Source of the DNA: a virus
DNA length: 64,000 nt
Strand: one strand, 5' to 3'
Virus record (IMG/VR): IMGVR_UViG_3300023245_000013
Both the position numbers and the translations under genes were made by a program. The notes below the pieces were generated by a model. That model saw only the letters and a program-made list of their open reading frames with translations. It made no database searches and had not been told where the DNA came from. The first letter of the stretch is position 1. Every line of letters starts with the position of its first letter. Of this stretch, positions 7,313 to 20,559 are shown piece after piece.

Positions 7313-7714
7313 ATGGGAAACCAAATAGGCGTGAAATTAATCCGTTCCATAGTAAGAAGTGCTCTTTTTGAGAAATACGCAATTCATGAAAATGATGGGC
7401 AAGCCCATGTGTATGCGACAAACGACAAGGGTAAGTTTCCTTATGAAGGAAGGGAGGCGACACAGGTTCCTCAAGACGTAGACCCCGTAGCAGATTATCT
7501 GTGGGACTATGCTCAACTAGCTGACAATAAAGAGATTTATGAATTTCCAACAACGGAATTCAATCTCGGATTGAAAATCGAAAAACAGAGAAACCCAGAA
7601 TTTAACATCTTAGAAGTGGCCGACAAGGTGATTTCACAACTGAAAGGCAACCCTCAATTCTATTCTGAATTAAGGGAGAAATACCGCTTTGGCACAAAGC
7701 CAGTTCAGTGGTGA
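7313..7714 (+). CDS. hypothetical protein
   Basis: 133-aa ORF preceded by TATTTAT, a candidate late-promoter motif. Confidence 0.55.
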   Translation: MGNQIGVKLIRSIVRSALFEKYAIHENDGQAHVYATNDKGKFPYEGREATQVPQDVDPVADYLWDYAQLADNKEIYEFPTTEFNLGLKIEKQRNPEFNILEVADKVISQLKGNPQFYSELREKYRFGTKPVQW

Positions 7715-17063: not shown

Positions 17064-17483
17064 ATGAAAAAAGCATTAGACAACCAGTAAGTACACCCTT
17101 CTACAGAGAAGAAAAACTTAAAGCTTTACATCGTCGTAAGACGAGACCTCGCTCCTGGAGCGCAGGCAACTCAAGGAATGCATTCATTCCACGTATTCAA
17201 TCAAGAATACACAGCCATTTATGAAAAATGGTTATCGAATCCATATTTAGGATTCTTATCAGTCAAAGACGAGCAAGAACTCATCGAGCTCCGAGACAAA
17301 CTCACGCAAAAAGGTATTAATTTCAGTTCCTTCCAGGAGCCTGACCTCGACAACCAGTTCACGTCTATTACCGTAGAACCAGGGAAAGAATCTGCCCGTT
17401 GGTTATCTAGTCTACCACTTGCTTTCAAAGAATTTACGAATCAACCAACTCTCAAGAGTTGTAATTGTAAAGAAGCCGCATGA
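17064..17483 (+). CDS. Pth2-like peptidyl-tRNA hydrolase with in-frame TAA at codon 9
   Basis: MKKALDNQ*VHPSTEKKNL-KLYIVVRRDLAPGAQATQGMH...VKDEQELIEL...FQEPDLDNQFTSI...LSSLPL; the Pth2 first strand lies upstream of the next ATG (17178), so only ATG 17064 covers the domain. Confidence 0.7.
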
Positions 17484-17504
17484 TGATGCAGGTTTCCATA
17501 TCAC

Positions 17505-17551
17505 GGTGCGAGAGCTTTTGGCTCATGGGACATTCGATTGTCCCCGCACCA
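17505..17551 (+). ncRNA. anticodon-less mini-tRNA, type A1
   Basis: GGTGCG/CGCACC acceptor, one hairpin GAGC/GCTC, T-like arm GGGAC-ATTCGATT-GTCCC. Confidence 0.65.
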
Positions 17552-17555
17552 CTAC

Positions 17556-17604
17556 GGCGGATGCATAAGCACCAGTTCAGGTTAAAGTCCTGAATCCGCC
17601 ACCA
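17556..17604 (+). ncRNA. anticodon-less mini-tRNA, type B1
   Basis: GGCGGAT/ATCCGCC acceptor plus ACCA, GCATAAGCAC linker, T-like arm TCAGG-TTAAAGT-CCTGA. Confidence 0.7.
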
Positions 17605-17678
17605 GACGGGATAGCTCAGCGGTTAGAGCACCAGGCCTTAAAAACCTGGGGACGAGAGTTCGAATCTTTCTCCTGTCA
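17605..17678 (+). tRNA. atypical tRNA with 9-nt anticodon loop CCUUAAAAA (UUA or UAA reading)
   Basis: Acceptor GACGGGA/TCCTGTC, canonical D arm, CCAGG/CCTGG stem, short variable loop, GTTCGAAT T loop. Confidence 0.8.
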
Positions 17679-17714
17679 CAACAAAAGTTCATTGACGTGT
17701 TGGAATTTAAAAAA

Positions 17715-17768
17715 GGCGTGAGAGTCCATTAGGGATTCGCGGGAGATTCGTTTCTTCCCACGCCACCA
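17715..17768 (+). ncRNA. anticodon-less mini-tRNA, type A2
   Basis: GGCGTG/CACGCC plus ACCA, hairpin GAGTCC/GGATTC, T-like arm GGGAG-ATTCGTTT-CTTCC. Confidence 0.7.
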
Positions 17769-17769
17769 C

Positions 17770-17815
17770 GGCCCCTGCATTAGCACTAGAGGAAGAGAAA
17801 GTCTTCCTGGGGCCT
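17770..17815 (+). ncRNA. anticodon-less mini-tRNA, type B2
   Basis: GGCCCC/GGGGCC, GCATTAGCACTAG linker, AGGAAG-AGAAAGT-CTTCCT. Confidence 0.65.
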
Positions 17816-17818
17816 CTT

Positions 17819-17898
17819 GGTGAGGTAGCTCAGTTGGTTCAGAGCACCAGGCTTTAAAACCCTGGAGGTCGAAGGTTCAAGTCCTTCCCTCACCACCA
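17819..17898 (+). tRNA. atypical tRNA with 9-nt anticodon loop CUUUAAAAC (UUA or UAA reading)
   Basis: GGTGAGG/CCTCACC plus ACCA, canonical D and T arms, CCAGG/CCTGG stem. Confidence 0.8.
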
Positions 17899-17899
17899 C

Positions 17900-17945
17900 G
17901 CCGCTTGCATTAGCACTAGAATAGGTGAGATTCCTGTTAGCGGCA
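17900..17945 (+). ncRNA. anticodon-less mini-tRNA, type B3
   Basis: GCCGCT/AGCGGC, GCATTAGCACTAG linker, AATAGG-TGAGATT-CCTGTT. Confidence 0.65.
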
Positions 17946-17948
17946 CTT

Positions 17949-18091
17949 CCTGGAGTAGCTCAGTTGGTTAGAGCACCACCCTGATAAATGAGGAAAAGGA
18001 TTGAAACGCAACCTGCGTGGCCACAAGGGTTGTGAAGTAGAGAATTGGAATCGAACGGTGGGGGTCGGGGGTTCGAGCCCTTCCTCCAGGA
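17949..18091 (+). tRNA. tRNA-Ile(GAU) with ~69-nt insertion at the 3' side of the anticodon loop
   Basis: CCTGGAG/CTCCAGG, D arm, CCACC-CTGATAA-[insert 17988-18056]-GGTGG, GGTTCGAGC T loop. Confidence 0.8.
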
Positions 18092-18097
18092 CAATTT

Positions 18098-18264
18098 CCT
18101 GCGATAGCTTAGATATGTTAAAGCACCACACTGATAATGTGGAAGACGAACCGAAAGGACTCAGTTCGGGATGCAAACACAAAAACTCACTTGCGTGGCC
18201 ACAAGAGTGAGTTAGTAGTTGATGTTGAAGAAATGATGGGGGGCAGAACCCTCTCGCGGGACCA
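18098..18264 (+). tRNA. tRNA-Ile(GAU) with ~89-nt insertion at the variable loop/T-stem junction
   Basis: CCTGCGA/TCGCGGG plus ACCA, CCACA-CTGATAA-TGTGG, insert ~18149-18237, non-canonical T loop GGCAGAA. Confidence 0.7.
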
Positions 18265-18324
18265 TTATAATGAGCAGTGAGATGCTTGGGGAGGCGCTGT
18301 TCTCATAAACAACTTCCCCCACAT

Positions 18325-18376
18325 GGCGTGAGAATCTGAAAGAAGATTCGCGTGAGATTCGTTTCTCCCCACGCCA
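18325..18376 (+). ncRNA. anticodon-less mini-tRNA, type A3
   Basis: GGCGTG/CACGCC, hairpin GAATCT/AGATTC, GTGAG-ATTCGTTT-CTCCC; clear paralogue of A2. Confidence 0.65.
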
Positions 18377-18433
18377 CAACATGGGCGGATTGCACCAAGA
18401 TTTTTAAGGAAATGTTCGAACGAGTACTTAAAA

Positions 18434-18508
18434 GGATGGAAGGCGCAAAACTAGATGGCTTAGCGGCCATAAGAAAAGTTGTAGGTTCGATTCCTATTCC
18501 GTTCACCA
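18434..18508 (+). tRNA. degenerate tRNA (UAG-containing 6-nt loop)
   Basis: GGATGGA/TCCGTTC plus ACCA, good T arm, poor D arm, ATGGC-TTAGCG-GCCAT. Confidence 0.5.
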
Positions 18509-18530
18509 AACAATAAAAAAAACGAAAGCT

Positions 18531-19043
18531 ATGGTAGAGACAAACAGAATTACACCCCAAGTGGTGATTGATGCTTTATGTGAGAGATTAAACCCGAAGC
18601 CTGGAGCGAGAATACTAGAACCATCTGCAGGCACAGGAGTATTGGCGGACGGGGTTCAAGAAAAATTCCAACAGTGTAAAATTGACTGTGTAGAACTTAA
18701 TCAAGAATGCCGAGTCACACTGAAAGAAAAAGAATATGAGTTGGTTGGCTCAGACTTCTTCCGATTCGAAGCCCAGACACCATATGATTACGTCATTGCC
18801 TGTCCTAACTTTCGAGACAATGTCGATTGCAAACACATCATGCACATGTATGACCAACTTGCACCAGGCGGAACAATCTCAAGCTTAACATCTCCTTTTT
18901 GGATGGTTGGAGAGACTTAACTGCACAAAGAATTCCGTGAGTGGCTTCAAGATAAGAACTACTCCGTGACAATGGTCCCAGATTATTCATTTGTTGAGGA
19001 TTACAAAACTGTACCCTCAGCTATAATCCGAATCAAGAAATGA
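18531..19043 (+). CDS. class I SAM-dependent (DNA adenine) methyltransferase with in-frame TAA at 18918-18920
   Basis: RILEPSAGTG, DCVELN, SDFF, VIACPNF; after the TAA the frame continues LHKEFREWL...DYSF...VPSAIIRIKK to TGA overlapping the next ATG. Confidence 0.65.
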
Positions 19044-19456
19044 AAAAGTTCAGACCAATTCAGTTCAGATGGAACGAAGCTTTAGGTGAAAAAAGTTGCC
19101 CGTATGCTTACAGATGGGTGTTCAATTTCTACTTATTTTCGTTCCGAGTTCACAACTTCATAAGAAGTGAACCAATCGCGCACCAGCATGACCATGCTTG
19201 GGATTTTATCACTTTCATACTGAAAGGAGGCTATTTAGACATAAGCCCAAATGGAATCGATAAGTTAAGACAAGGAAGCATTCGCTTTAGAAAAGCAGAA
19301 CATATACATAATGTAGTGCTTCCTAAAGATGTGTCTTGCTGGACATTTGTATTAGCGTTTAAGCCACGACGAAAATGGGGTTTTTGGATTAATGGAAAAT
19401 TGAAACGTCCATTAAAGTATTTTCATAAATATGGTCACTTGCCTTGCGAGGATTAA
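19040..19456 (+). CDS. cupin-like hypothetical protein
   Basis: HQHDHAWDFITFILKGGY...FRKAEHIHNV. Confidence 0.55.
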   Translation: MKKFRPIQFRWNEALGEKSCPYAYRWVFNFYLFSFRVHNFIRSEPIAHQHDHAWDFITFILKGGYLDISPNGIDKLRQGSIRFRKAEHIHNVVLPKDVSCWTFVLAFKPRRKWGFWINGKLKRPLKYFHKYGHLPCED

Positions 19457-20202
19457 AAACAAAAAAAATAATGGATTGGTTTAAAAAAGTAATGGATTAT
19501 AATGACAAGTTTGAGTGTGTGGATATTAATTTTGGCACCGAGTTGGGTGGTGAAATTAGTTTTGAAGTCCAATACTGGAATGGAGACAGAATGTCTTACA
19601 ACTTTGTACTGATGTACTACATGAGCCCAATGGCATCAAACTTCTTTGATATAATAGATGAGTTTTGTGAAAAAACAGATTTAATCTTCTCTGAGTATGG
19701 AGATGTGTTTAAAAAAATAGACCAATTAAATGCTAAAGAAGAATCAGCGCAAGAAATGGCAAGCAAAATATCAAAACAGACTTACATTGTAAAAGACACA
19801 GAGTTTAATCCAGAAAGAAATCCTTCGTGGATGAAATCCTTGTACAGTATCGGAGAATCTTTGTCCGTGGAAATATTCGAGTTAGAAAGTCCAGAGAAAT
19901 CAAAGTATGGTATACATATGTCAACAAACTGCAATGACGCCATTCCATGCTGCTCTTATTTTCCAACCATTGTATTGACGCATATTGATGAATCAAAAAC
20001 CATTGATGAAGAAATAGAGAGAACACTAGAATATGCGATATGGTACTTTAAAGAGAATCCAGGCATAATAGACTACATCTATGATAGAAAAAACAAAGAT
20101 AAAATCAACATAAAGTTAGCCAAACTAGAAAATTCTGTCCCAGGTAAGGTGAAAGAATTCATGACATTAAAAGAATGGTTGATAACTTCAAAACCTAGTT
20201 AG
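19444..20202 (+). CDS. hypothetical protein
   Basis: 252-aa ORF. Confidence 0.6.
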   Translation: MRGLKTKKIMDWFKKVMDYNDKFECVDINFGTELGGEISFEVQYWNGDRMSYNFVLMYYMSPMASNFFDIIDEFCEKTDLIFSEYGDVFKKIDQLNAKEESAQEMASKISKQTYIVKDTEFNPERNPSWMKSLYSIGESLSVEIFELESPEKSKYGIHMSTNCNDAIPCCSYFPTIVLTHIDESKTIDEEIERTLEYAIWYFKENPGIIDYIYDRKNKDKINIKLAKLENSVPGKVKEFMTLKEWLITSKPS

Positions 20203-20221
20203 TAACCACTATTTTAATGCT

Positions 20222-20425
20222 ATGGCTACTGTAGATAACACGAGATATTATATAGAATGGACTTCAAACTATACAGCTAAGCATCGCCCCAGGGTGGCTT
20301 GGACCAAATACTCTGGTCCATATTCCTCGTTACGAAGAGTTATGCAGGCTAAGAAAGATATTCTATCTTCACCGTATTGTGGAGACTGGCTGTATCGGAT
20401 AGCACATTACCACAAGGGGCGTTAG
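20222..20425 (+). CDS. hypothetical protein
   Basis: 67-aa ORF; stop overlaps the tRNA 5' end. Confidence 0.45.
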   Translation: MATVDNTRYYIEWTSNYTAKHRPRVAWTKYSGPYSSLRRVMQAKKDILSSPYCGDWLYRIAHYHKGR

Positions 20426-20487
20426 TTCAGAGGTAGAACATCAGGCTTTAACCCTGTACGTCAGGGGTTCGAACCCCCTACGCCCCT
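20416..20487 (+). tRNA. ochre suppressor tRNA (anticodon UUA)
   Basis: Canonical cloverleaf GGGGCGT/ACGCCCC, GTTC/GAAC D stem, TCAGG-CTTTAAC-CCTGT, AGGGG-TTCGAAC-CCCCT; anticodon TTA at 20448-20450. Confidence 0.85.
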
Positions 20488-20559
20488 CTTGAATTACAGA
20501 TAGAAAAAGGCCGCCCTTCGAACAGTTTTTATATTTGTAAAATTGATTACATTTGTAGA

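What the first reader, a model, noticed from the sequence alone, without database searches (positions are those of the whole stretch)
17064..20487. Ochre-suppressor tRNA next to two genes interrupted by in-frame TAA
Seen: a canonical tRNA with anticodon UUA (20416-20487). The Pth2-like gene has TAA at codon 9 (17088-90) upstream of its first conserved strand. The methyltransferase has TAA at 18918-20 followed by 41 in-frame codons that look like the family C-terminus. Many ordinary genes here also end in TAA, so this is not genome-wide recoding. Inference: conditional readthrough, so that peptidyl-tRNA hydrolase is made only when termination at UAA is leaky (suppressor active or release factors limited), forming a translation-state sensor.
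Basis: partly seen in the sequence, partly recalled or inferred. Interest (0 to 1): 0.82.

Follow-up and report, generated by a model that had tools for sequence, protein, structure and literature searches.

The report
Ochre suppressor tRNA gates phage genes
A salt-lake phage that uses the normal genetic code keeps a deliberate UAA stop inside two of its genes, next to its own UAA-reading tRNA, so these two enzymes are most likely made only while that tRNA overrides the stop; this is the rare UAA form of a widespread phage switch that I found in no paper.

Summary
tRNA(UUA) lies at 20416-20488. TAA is codon 9 of a PTH2-fold gene and codon 130 of a small methyltransferase (MTase) gene. TAA also ends 99 of 178 ORFs in the genome, so the code is not reassigned.

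These are not recent mutations. Every diverged relative in which the site lies on the contig keeps TAA at both positions. The 40 codons after the MTase TAA are under purifying selection, although synonymous sites are saturated. Contigs from four runs (2017-2019) are identical at both stops. Two relatives whose contigs reach far enough also carry tRNA(UUA).

More distant phages show the same layout with TAG and tRNA(CUA). 38 of 41 PTH2-like loci have a 1-9 codon leader followed by a stop, the nearby suppressor tRNA is always cognate, and the gated genes end in a different stop codon. Cultured Bxz1, XacN1 and pT24 have this layout too.

Best reading: translation gated by the phage's own suppressor tRNA. 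The "translation-state sensor" purpose is plausible but untested, and nothing here is experimental.

This scan has already noted the module on other DNA (e1-933198, e1-5364104, and e1-5362904, which is this phage in another assembly). I found no published description.

The parts
17064..17087 (+). Eight-codon leader (MKKALDNQ) of the PTH2-like gene, starting at the conserved ATG
   Evidence: Five relatives keep MKKxLD(H/N)Q, with synonymous Leu codon changes (TTA, CTT, CTC), so the leader is read in this frame.
17088..17090 (+). In-frame TAA gate, codon 9 of the PTH2-like gene (context CAG TAA GTA)
   Evidence: Present in the window and in L001, L002, L006, L009 and L011. Identical in contigs of four runs from 2017-2019.
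17091..17486 (+). PTH2-fold domain, ending in TGA TGA
   Evidence: Pfam PF01981 E 1.2e-6. Profile against PDB 2zv3 E 2.2e-10. AF2 model pLDDT 86 with strand 1 at residues 20-26. The top 14 Foldseek PDB hits are all PTH2. The terminator is TGA in all five TAA-gated lineages.
18531..18917 (+). N-terminal 129 codons of a small SAM-dependent amino-methyltransferase (motif I EPSAGTG, motif IV ACPNF)
   Evidence: Weak Pfam MTase hits. AF2 model pLDDT 92.9. The best PDB matches are N6-adenine DNA MTase catalytic domains (M.TaqI, M.BseCI, CamA) at TMq 0.75-0.80.
18918..18920 (+). In-frame TAA gate, codon 130 of the MTase gene
   Evidence: TAA sits at the same codon in 7 relatives at 65-86% identity. 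Distant full-length homologues have T, D, E or P there.
18921..19043 (+). Forty-codon C-terminal part of the MTase plus the TGA that overlaps the next gene's ATG (ATGA)
   Evidence: It stays open and in frame in all relatives whose contig covers it. pN is 0.04-0.25 against pS 0.18-0.93, the same as in the N-terminal part. It forms a helix and strands 6 and 7 of the Rossmann fold in the model.
20416..20488 (+). tRNA with anticodon UUA (20448-20450), an ochre suppressor; class I shape, no encoded CCA
   Evidence: ARAGORN and Rfam 66.2 bits. L009:2511-2585 and L010:502-573 carry tRNAs with the same loop CTTTAAC and D stem GTTC/GAAC, but compensatory changes in the acceptor, anticodon and T stems.

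Best explanation
This is a suppressor-tRNA-gated pair of genes.

Ribosomes start the PTH2-like gene at ATG 17064 and the MTase gene at ATG 18531. They meet an in-frame UAA at codon 9 and codon 130 respectively. They make the full-length, foldable protein only when the phage's own tRNA(UUA) (20416-20488, same strand) wins against the release factors and inserts an amino acid. Otherwise they release an 8-residue peptide, or a 129-residue MTase fragment that lacks strands 6 and 7.

The amount of both enzymes is therefore tied to the activity of that tRNA relative to termination. The inserted residue probably does not matter, because both stops sit at positions that tolerate any residue: a disordered leader, and a position that is T, D, E or P in homologues.

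Shown here: the anatomy, conservation of the stops, purifying selection on the sequence after the stop, and the cognate match between gate codon and tRNA anticodon across many phages.

Inferred: that this tRNA is the decoder, and that read-through is partial. UAA also ends most phage genes, and ochre suppressors are weak in E. coli by established genetics.

The purpose is also inferred. My preferred reading is a dosage link or feedback between suppressor or termination activity and two translation-related enzymes, in the manner of RF2 autoregulation.
For: 1. Seven diverged relatives keep TAA at MTase codon 130, and six of them keep 40 open, conserved codons ending in TGA (ATGA overlap); the seventh contig, L006, ends inside the extension.
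2. pS is 0.4-0.9 (saturated) against pN 0.04-0.25 in the extension, the same as upstream.
3. No conserved start codon follows the TAA. The next codon is CTG, GTG or GTA, and the internal Met is not conserved.
4. The PTH2-like gene keeps MKKxLDxQ-TAA-V in five relatives, with no start codon before strand 1.
5. Both models show that the parts after, or spared by, the alternative start are integral to the fold.
6. tRNA(UUA) shows stem covariation and an invariant loop in three lineages.
7. The gate codon and the neighbouring suppressor anticodon always agree: TAA with UUA in the window, L009 and L010, and TAG with CUA in L027, L050, L132, L133, L134-L156, pT24, Bxz1, LR756501 and LR756500.
8. As a control, 79 of 80 IMG/VR MTase loci have no suppressor tRNA, and the single locus that has one (L050) also has in-frame TAG in both genes. 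One further locus (L054, cut contig) has an in-frame TAG without a tRNA seen.
9. MTase gates arose at three or more different codons (10, 17, 130).
10. Gated genes end in a non-cognate stop: 5 of 5 TAA-gated genes end in TGA, and 27 of 29 TAG-gated genes end in TAA or TGA. The two that end in TAG are the ungated exceptions.
11. No conserved RNA structure follows either TAA, so a trans-acting decoder is needed.
12. These loci are not globally recoded.
Against: Nothing here is experimental. I have no RNA, charging or proteomic data.

TAA ends 99 of 178 ORFs, and there is no excess of back-up stops after TAA (median 11 codons to the next stop). Efficient ochre suppression would therefore be costly, and the yield of full-length protein may be only a few percent.

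The tRNA has a T-T mismatch at the top of the anticodon stem. Its discriminator differs between lineages (U, A, U), so its amino-acid identity is unclear.

In L001, L002, L006, L008 and L011 the contigs are too short to show whether the tRNA is present, so co-occurrence within the TAA clade rests on three lineages.

The PTH2-like protein lacks the canonical GKGK and DAGxT motifs, so what the gate controls is uncertain.
Confidence: 0.72

Rival explanations
1. Neutral tolerance. Because a suppressor tRNA happens to be present, nonsense mutations to the cognate stop at harmless positions are nearly neutral and have drifted to fixation. The stops would have no regulatory role, and this would be an early step toward code reassignment.
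For: Both stops lie at positions that tolerate any residue. Borges et al. (bioRxiv 10.1101/2021.08.26.457843) propose gradual accumulation of recoded stops in phages that carry suppressors.
Against: Only 2 of about 178 genes carry an in-frame TAA. The same two gene families are hit repeatedly, at different codons and with different stop types, in distant clades. TAA is retained although synonymous sites around it are saturated, whereas drift would often revert it to a sense codon. In the PTH2-like gene the stop is always within the first 2-10 codons.
Confidence: 0.1
2. No read-through occurs. The 8-codon ORF would be a regulatory upstream mini-ORF, and the PTH2-like protein would start by termination-reinitiation or at a non-canonical codon just after the stop. 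The MTase would be made as two separate polypeptides that assemble.
For: The codon after the stop is GTG or ATT in some lineages. Bxz1 gp154 is annotated as starting at the GTG directly after ATG-TAG. Two-codon mini-ORFs have a known link to peptidyl-tRNA drop-off and Pth (lambda bar minigenes, established knowledge).
Against: The codon after the stop is GTA, ACC or CTG in many lineages, and these are not start codons. Reinitiation does not explain why a cognate suppressor tRNA is nearly always adjacent. It also does not explain why the gate codon type tracks the anticodon, or why the terminators avoid the gate codon. The leader is always in frame with the domain.
Confidence: 0.1
3. Broken genes or sequence errors: recent nonsense mutations or assembly artefacts in a metagenome-assembled phage.
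For: The genome is a metagenomic contig, estimated 64% complete.
Against: The sequence is identical in contigs of four runs over three years. It is conserved in relatives from other samples, with purifying selection after the stop.
Confidence: 0.02
4. Genome-wide or block-wise reassignment of TAA to a sense codon.
For: A tRNA(UUA) is present.
Against: TAA is the commonest terminator (99 of 178). Code-11 coding density is 0.91 for the genome. Reading TAA as sense gains no more than reading TAG as sense. A survey of 10,754 jumbo phages found none with TAA recoded (PMC13037316).
Confidence: 0.01

Closest known systems
Autoregulation of release factor 2 (prfB) through an in-frame UGA (established knowledge)
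   Same: An early in-frame stop inside a translation-related gene makes the yield of full-length product depend on how well termination competes at that stop. This is a built-in sensor of termination activity.
   Different: prfB escapes by a +1 frameshift and needs no special tRNA. Here the frame is unchanged and a dedicated, co-encoded cognate suppressor tRNA is the likely decoder. The sign of any feedback is unknown.
Stop-codon-recoded phages with phage-encoded suppressor tRNAs (TAG to Gln 'code 15', TGA to Trp 'code 4'; crAss-like, Lak; bioRxiv 10.1101/2021.08.26.457843, PMC9523058)
   Same: A phage-encoded tRNA reads a stop codon inside phage genes. A timing or regulatory role has been proposed.
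   Different: In those phages hundreds of genes are recoded and the stop is abandoned as a terminator. Here only two genes carry the stop, the same codon ends most other genes, and the codon is TAA. Large surveys did not find TAA recoded (PMC13037316).
bldA tRNA-Leu(UAA) and rare TTA codons in Streptomyces (established knowledge)
   Same: A single tRNA acts as a trans-acting translational regulator of the few genes that contain its codon.
   Different: bldA reads a rare sense codon and belongs to the cell. Here the codon is the main stop codon, and the tRNA and its targets sit together in a phage.
E. coli ochre suppressors supG/supL (tRNA-Lys with anticodon UUU changed to UUA; established genetics)
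   Same: A class I tRNA with a UUA anticodon. The L009 orthologue is 79% identical to E. coli tRNA-Lys, its best E. coli match.
   Different: Those are laboratory mutants of an essential tRNA. This is a natural, conserved gene. The Lys identity of the window's copy is not established: its discriminator is U, and its nearest neighbours are other suppressors.
Amber-gated PTH2-like genes with tRNA(CUA) in other phages
   Same: The same gene family and the same layout: an ATG, 1-8 codons, a stop, then the domain, with a cognate suppressor tRNA within about 3 kb and terminators that avoid the gate codon.
   Different: The window's clade uses TAA and UUA instead of TAG and CUA. It has a longer conserved leader, and it also gates the neighbouring MTase late in the gene, at codon 130.

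Membership tests
Functional nonsense-suppressor tRNA | Canonical cloverleaf with a 7-nt anticodon loop, U33, and an anticodon complementary to a stop codon | tested here: met
   ARAGORN and Rfam. The loop is C-U-UUA-A-C.
Functional nonsense-suppressor tRNA | Evolutionary maintenance: stems co-vary while the anticodon loop stays fixed | tested here: met
   Three lineages differ in the acceptor, anticodon and T stems through compensatory changes, and the loop CTTTAAC is invariant. Only three sequences were available.
Functional nonsense-suppressor tRNA | Expressed, CCA-tailed, aminoacylated, and able to insert an amino acid at the stop | not testable with these tools
   No run that holds the sequence is on record as RNA. 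No CCA is encoded. Amino-acid identity is unresolved.
Programmed stop-codon read-through | The in-frame stop is conserved at the same codon in diverged homologues | tested here: met
Programmed stop-codon read-through | The sequence after the stop is under protein-level purifying selection in the same frame | tested here: met
   pN is far below pS in the 40-codon extension. The extension aligns with full-length homologues and is part of the fold.
Programmed stop-codon read-through | A read-through product is detected | not testable with these tools
   No proteomic or ribosome-profiling data were available.
Stop-codon reassignment (alternative genetic code) | The codon is no longer used as a terminator, and coding density rises when it is read as sense | tested here: not met
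   TAA ends 99 of 178 ORFs. Density does not rise specifically.
PTH2 peptidyl-tRNA hydrolase (PF01981) | Sequence-profile match above the curated cutoff, and the PTH2 fold | tested here: met
   29.1 bits against cutoff 23. PDB profile E 2.2e-10. Foldseek TMt 0.70-0.76 to 2zv3, 3erj, 1xty and 1q7s.
PTH2 peptidyl-tRNA hydrolase (PF01981) | Canonical active-site motifs (Lys in GKGK; Asp and Thr in DAGxT, as I recall from work on archaeal Pth2) | tested here: not met
   In the alignment to 2zv3, the phage family has PG--AQ in place of GMGKGK, and EPD in place of DAGHT. It has its own invariant H40, E92, P93, D94 and T100. I therefore call it PTH2-like and treat its activity as unproven.
N6-adenine / amino-methyltransferase (class I SAM MTase, gamma-type catalytic domain) | Motif I (ExxxGxG), motif IV (D/N/S)PP(Y/F), and the seven-stranded fold | tested here: inconclusive
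   The fold and motif I are met. Motif IV reads ACPNF, AAPPF or ASPPF, so the first residue is not D or N. There is no target-recognition domain, and the substrate (DNA, RNA or protein) is unknown.
prfB-type autoregulatory recoding | The gene product itself acts on the recoding event, closing a feedback loop | not tested
   Whether the PTH2-like enzyme or the MTase acts on the suppressor tRNA, the release factors or the products of suppression is unknown.

The most novel reading that the evidence does not exclude
Many standard-code phages may carry a self-contained translational sensor. A dedicated suppressor tRNA competes with the host release factors at a stop placed in the first codons of a PTH2-like gene, and in this clade also inside an amino-methyltransferase gene. 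These enzymes would then be dosed according to the termination or tRNA state of the infected cell, and would feed back on it.

The window would be the UAA version of this sensor. Because UAA is read by both RF1 and RF2, it would report on total termination capacity.

This reading would also explain the orphan suppressor tRNAs of cultured jumbo phages such as XacN1, whose authors found no target for them (PMC5852040).
Probability: 0.3. Interest if true: 0.9.

Novelty: new variant of a known kind. Interest (0 to 1): 0.8.

Why it matters
Suppressor tRNAs keep turning up in phages that use the standard code, and their targets have been a puzzle. The XacN1 paper states that no target could be found (PMC5852040), and the phiKp24 paper leaves the role of its tRNA-Sup-TTA open (PMC8386662).

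Here the targets are identified by conservation: a PTH2-like gene, and in this clade a methyltransferase gene, each carrying the cognate stop. The window shows that this works even with UAA, the commonest terminator and the one stop codon that phage surveys never found recoded.

If the gating is real, it is a natural example of a tRNA used as a gene-specific translational regulator through a stop codon. It is also a compact part for synthetic biology. The module is present in the cultured phages Bxz1, XacN1 and pT24, and its gate is also in CM1, so it can be tested directly at the bench.

It also matters for annotation. These genes are routinely truncated or given wrong start sites in the databases: 101-aa and 129-aa calls here, BPT24_235 in pT24, and ORF364 in XacN1.

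Tried and rejected
- A codon-usage log-odds scan for stop-separated ORF pairs was not discriminating. It gave no TAA excess and missed the MTase.
- I tested for back-up stops after TAA terminators and found no enrichment.
- Comparing naive ORF length under alternative codes is confounded by AT content.
- The first IMG/VR scan, with the single MTase protein, found nothing. Alignment A4 was too diverse for locus scans. The genome-contig scan with A5 found no relative.
- The contig of P0032 (an uninterrupted PTH2-like gene followed by a 166-aa gene) gave no DNA, so that control could not be read.
- No RNA holder is listed among the public runs, so I could not look at expression.
- The 141-kb contig contains no RF-1 domain gene, but it is only about 64% complete.
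- There is no conserved RNA structure downstream of either TAA (consensus -2.6 and -1.3 kcal/mol, no covariation).
- The amino-acid identity of the tRNA is inconclusive. L009's copy best matches E. coli tRNA-Lys. The window's copy has discriminator U and is nearest to other suppressors, then to His and Gly tRNAs.
- Promoter and terminator consensus scans were no better than shuffles for promoters, so the single-operon idea stays unproven.
- I considered and rejected an initiator-like tRNA starting translation at the stop codon. The tRNA lacks the three G-C pairs in the anticodon stem, and its 1-72 pair is a normal G-C. The MTase stops are also internal.
- I considered and rejected a frameshift or bypass, because the downstream domain is in the zero frame.

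Full report
SETTING

The window is the reverse complement of positions 869-64868 of a 141-kb virus contig from a salt-lake metagenome. Its GC content is 39%. All 15 ARAGORN tRNA genes of the contig lie in the window. It has no close relative among deposited phage genomes.

A tRNA with the loop C-U-UUA-A-C lies at 20416-20488 and scores 66.2 bits with the Rfam tRNA model.

The PTH2-like gene reads ATG(17064)-MKKALDNQ-TAA(17088-90)-VHPSTEKKNLKLYIVVRRDL... and ends TGA TGA. Pfam PF01981 matches residues 19-110. No ATG, GTG or TTG lies between the TAA and the first strand.

The MTase gene (ATG 18531) has TAA at codon 130. It then runs for 40 more codons to a TGA that overlaps the ATG of the next gene.

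TAA ends 99 of 178 ORF calls in the genome. A genome-wide search for stop-interrupted genes that fill otherwise empty DNA returns only these two strong TAA cases. Contigs from four public runs of 2017, 2018 and 2019 cover both stops without a single difference, so these are not assembly errors.

THE STOPS ARE CONSERVED AND THE SEQUENCE AFTER THEM IS TRANSLATED

A protein search with the read-through MTase found homologues at 65-98% identity. Six of these seven are called at 129 residues, and the seventh (146 aa, a longer N-terminal call) stops at the same codon. More distant homologues (43-49% identity) are 172-190 residues long and cover the extension.

I fetched the DNA of the closer relatives. 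All seven have TAA at the same codon. Where the contig covers it, 40 open, conserved codons follow, ending in TGA inside ATGA.

Pairwise Nei-Gojobori counts give pS 0.4-0.9 for most pairs, which is saturated. In the extension pN is only 0.04-0.25, the same as in the N-terminal part.

The codon after the TAA is CTG, GTG or GTA, and the one internal Met is not conserved. A separately initiated C-terminal peptide is therefore unlikely.

The AF2 model (pLDDT 92.9) places a helix and strands 6 and 7 of the Rossmann fold in the extension. The 129-residue product would lack these elements of the fold.

For the PTH2-like gene, five relatives keep MKKxLD(H/N)Q-TAA-V. Their Leu codon changes are synonymous, and none has a start codon before strand 1. 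In the model (pLDDT 86) residues 1-19 are disordered and strand 1 is residues 20-26. The first standard start codon, Met39, falls inside helix 1.

THE tRNA IS MAINTAINED AND TRAVELS WITH THE GATED GENES

The two relatives whose contigs reach far enough, L009 and L010, carry a tRNA(UUA) within 1-2.5 kb of the gated genes. The three tRNAs share the loop CTTTAAC and the D stem, but differ by compensatory changes in the other stems. L009's copy is 79% identical to E. coli tRNA-Lys, its best E. coli match. This fits a supG-like origin, but the identity of the window's copy is unresolved.

THE SAME LAYOUT RECURS WITH TAG AND tRNA(CUA)

Scans of metagenome and IMG/VR contigs, and of deposited phages, turned up the following:
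- L027: PTH2-like MTH-TAG-..., an uninterrupted MTase, and tRNA(CUA).
- L024, L036 and L047: TAG at MTase codon 10, with tRNA(CUA) in L024.
- L050: TAG at PTH2 codon 3 and at MTase codon 17, with tRNA(CUA) between them.
- L130, L132 and L133, which are syntenic relatives with the Ro60 gene: MK-TAG, plus tRNA(CUA) in L132 and L133; L130 ends before that region.
- 24 IMG/VR loci found with the PTH2-like profile: 20 have an M-x(1-5)-TAG leader that gates the domain, and 19 of those have tRNA(CUA) within 6 kb.
- Huge phages LR756501, LR756500 and LR756504.
- Cultured phages. Tenacibaculum pT24 has MK-TAG and an annotated tRNA-Sup 2.6 kb upstream, and its CDS start is annotated downstream of strand 1. 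Mycobacterium phage Bxz1 gp154 has ATG-TAG-GTG and tRNA(CUA) 656 nt downstream.
- XacN1, Xoo-sp13 and Stenotrophomonas CM1 have MK(K)-TAG in front of a fusion protein with a C-terminal PTH2-like domain. CM1 has no later ATG.

In all, 38 of 41 loci have a 1-9 codon leader followed by an in-frame stop. The base after the stop is always a purine. By established genetics of context effects, a 3' purine favours suppression. A cognate suppressor tRNA is seen within 3.3 kb in 30 loci.

These loci are not globally recoded.

As a control, 79 of 80 IMG/VR loci of the wider MTase family have no suppressor tRNA. The one that has a suppressor, L050, has in-frame TAG in both genes. One further locus (L054) has an in-frame TAG, but its contig is cut.

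The gated genes avoid the gate codon as their terminator. All five TAA-gated genes end in TGA. Of the TAG-gated genes, 27 of 29 end in TAA or TGA, and the two that end in TAG are the ungated exceptions.

No conserved RNA structure follows either TAA.

WHAT IT MOST LIKELY IS

This is translation gated by the phage's own cognate suppressor tRNA. I put 0.9 on the stops being conserved and translated through, about 0.7 on the phage tRNA being the decoder, and about 0.3 on the circuit acting as a sensor or feedback on termination or tRNA state.

The neutral-tolerance rival does not explain three things: the repeated, independent hits in the same two gene families, the early position of the stop in the PTH2-like gene, or the retention of TAA at saturated divergence. 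The reinitiation rival does not explain the cognate tRNA or the choice of terminator.

WHAT THE GATED PROTEINS ARE

The first has the PTH2 fold. It replaces the canonical GKGK and DAGxT motifs by its own invariant H, EPD and T residues, so its hydrolase activity on (peptidyl-)tRNA is an inference.

The second is a minimal amino-methyltransferase domain, closest to the catalytic domains of M.TaqI, M.BseCI and CamA. It has an unusual motif IV and no recognition domain. Its closer relatives often sit in phage tRNA islands. Its substrate is unknown.

LITERATURE

Phage surveys report TAG and TGA recoding only (bioRxiv 10.1101/2021.08.26.457843). One survey states that no jumbo phage recodes TAA (PMC13037316). 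The XacN1 paper could not identify targets for its two tRNA(CUA) genes (PMC5852040). The phiKp24 paper notes an unexplained tRNA-Sup-TTA (PMC8386662). My searches of the held library found no description of a stop-gated PTH2 gene.

EARLIER NOTES OF THIS SCAN

I consulted these after my own analysis. They describe the same module in at least 47 other genomes. These include an ochre case (e1-5364104) and this same phage in another assembly (e1-5362904).

A later check of e1-933198 kept the observation but priced the bold "self-contained switch" reading at 20 in 100. Its reasons were that nothing is experimental and that a strong stop-reader should be costly. I share that caution. The cost argument is stronger here, because TAA is the main terminator.

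What this report adds:
- the selection analysis on the MTase extension;
- the three independent MTase gate positions;
- the terminator-avoidance rule;
- the population check over three years;
- the absence of a cis RNA structure;
- the divergence of the active-site motifs;
- the link to the published XacN1 puzzle.

Noticed in passing
window 17605-17679 and 17819-17898: Two tRNAs called Leu(UAA) have a class I shape with no long variable arm, and a mismatched 31-39 pair (C-A, C-C), so the loop could be read as 9 nt. Orthologues in L001 and L002 keep the UUAAAA core. The second tRNA is about 80% identical to Enterococcus phage tRNA-Phe. They may read UUA/UUG with a non-Leu body.
   Followed up: partly
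window 17949-18091 and 18100-18270; L009:822-963; L010:756-898; L001:3853-3993: tRNA-Ile(GAU)-like genes carry insertions of about 69 nt after the anticodon. Each insertion contains a hairpin with the conserved loop TGCGTGGCCACAAG. The same insert motif recurs in the relatives (ARAGORN intron mode).
   Followed up: partly
L009:564-638: A tRNA with an 8-nt anticodon loop (ARAGORN reports the anticodon as 'gcaa') lies between the PTH2-like gene and the MTase gene of a relative.
   Followed up: no
L164 (XacN1 243741-244595); L158 (Xoo-sp13); L165 (Stenotrophomonas CM1): In XacN1-like jumbo phages the PTH2-like domain is the C-terminus of a roughly 280-aa fusion protein preceded by MK(K)-TAG. The XacN1 paper reports two tRNA(CUA) genes with no known target. 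This gene is a candidate target.
   Followed up: partly
L150:6001-6309 and 7507-7598: A GC-rich (60%) giant-phage locus has an uninterrupted PTH2-like gene next to a 92-nt class II tRNA with anticodon UUA. This is a suppressor with no gate seen in the PTH2-like gene.
   Followed up: no
L012 (22 tRNAs); L025:1693-2227 (six tRNA-Leu in a row): Ungated homologues of the small MTase (43-51% identity) sit inside dense phage tRNA arrays. This hints that the enzyme acts on tRNA.
   Followed up: no
L161:8001-8315 (LR756501); L143:5261-5359: The 735-kb phage's PTH2-like gene has a second in-frame stop inside the domain (QEFP*IYEQW). L143 has a second, partial PTH2-like copy preceded by M-TAG.
   Followed up: no
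None is in the region studied.
   Followed up: no
window 20250: This is the only polymorphism seen in 3.7 kb across four runs: A>G in three of them, inside the 67-aa ORF upstream of the suppressor tRNA.
   Followed up: no
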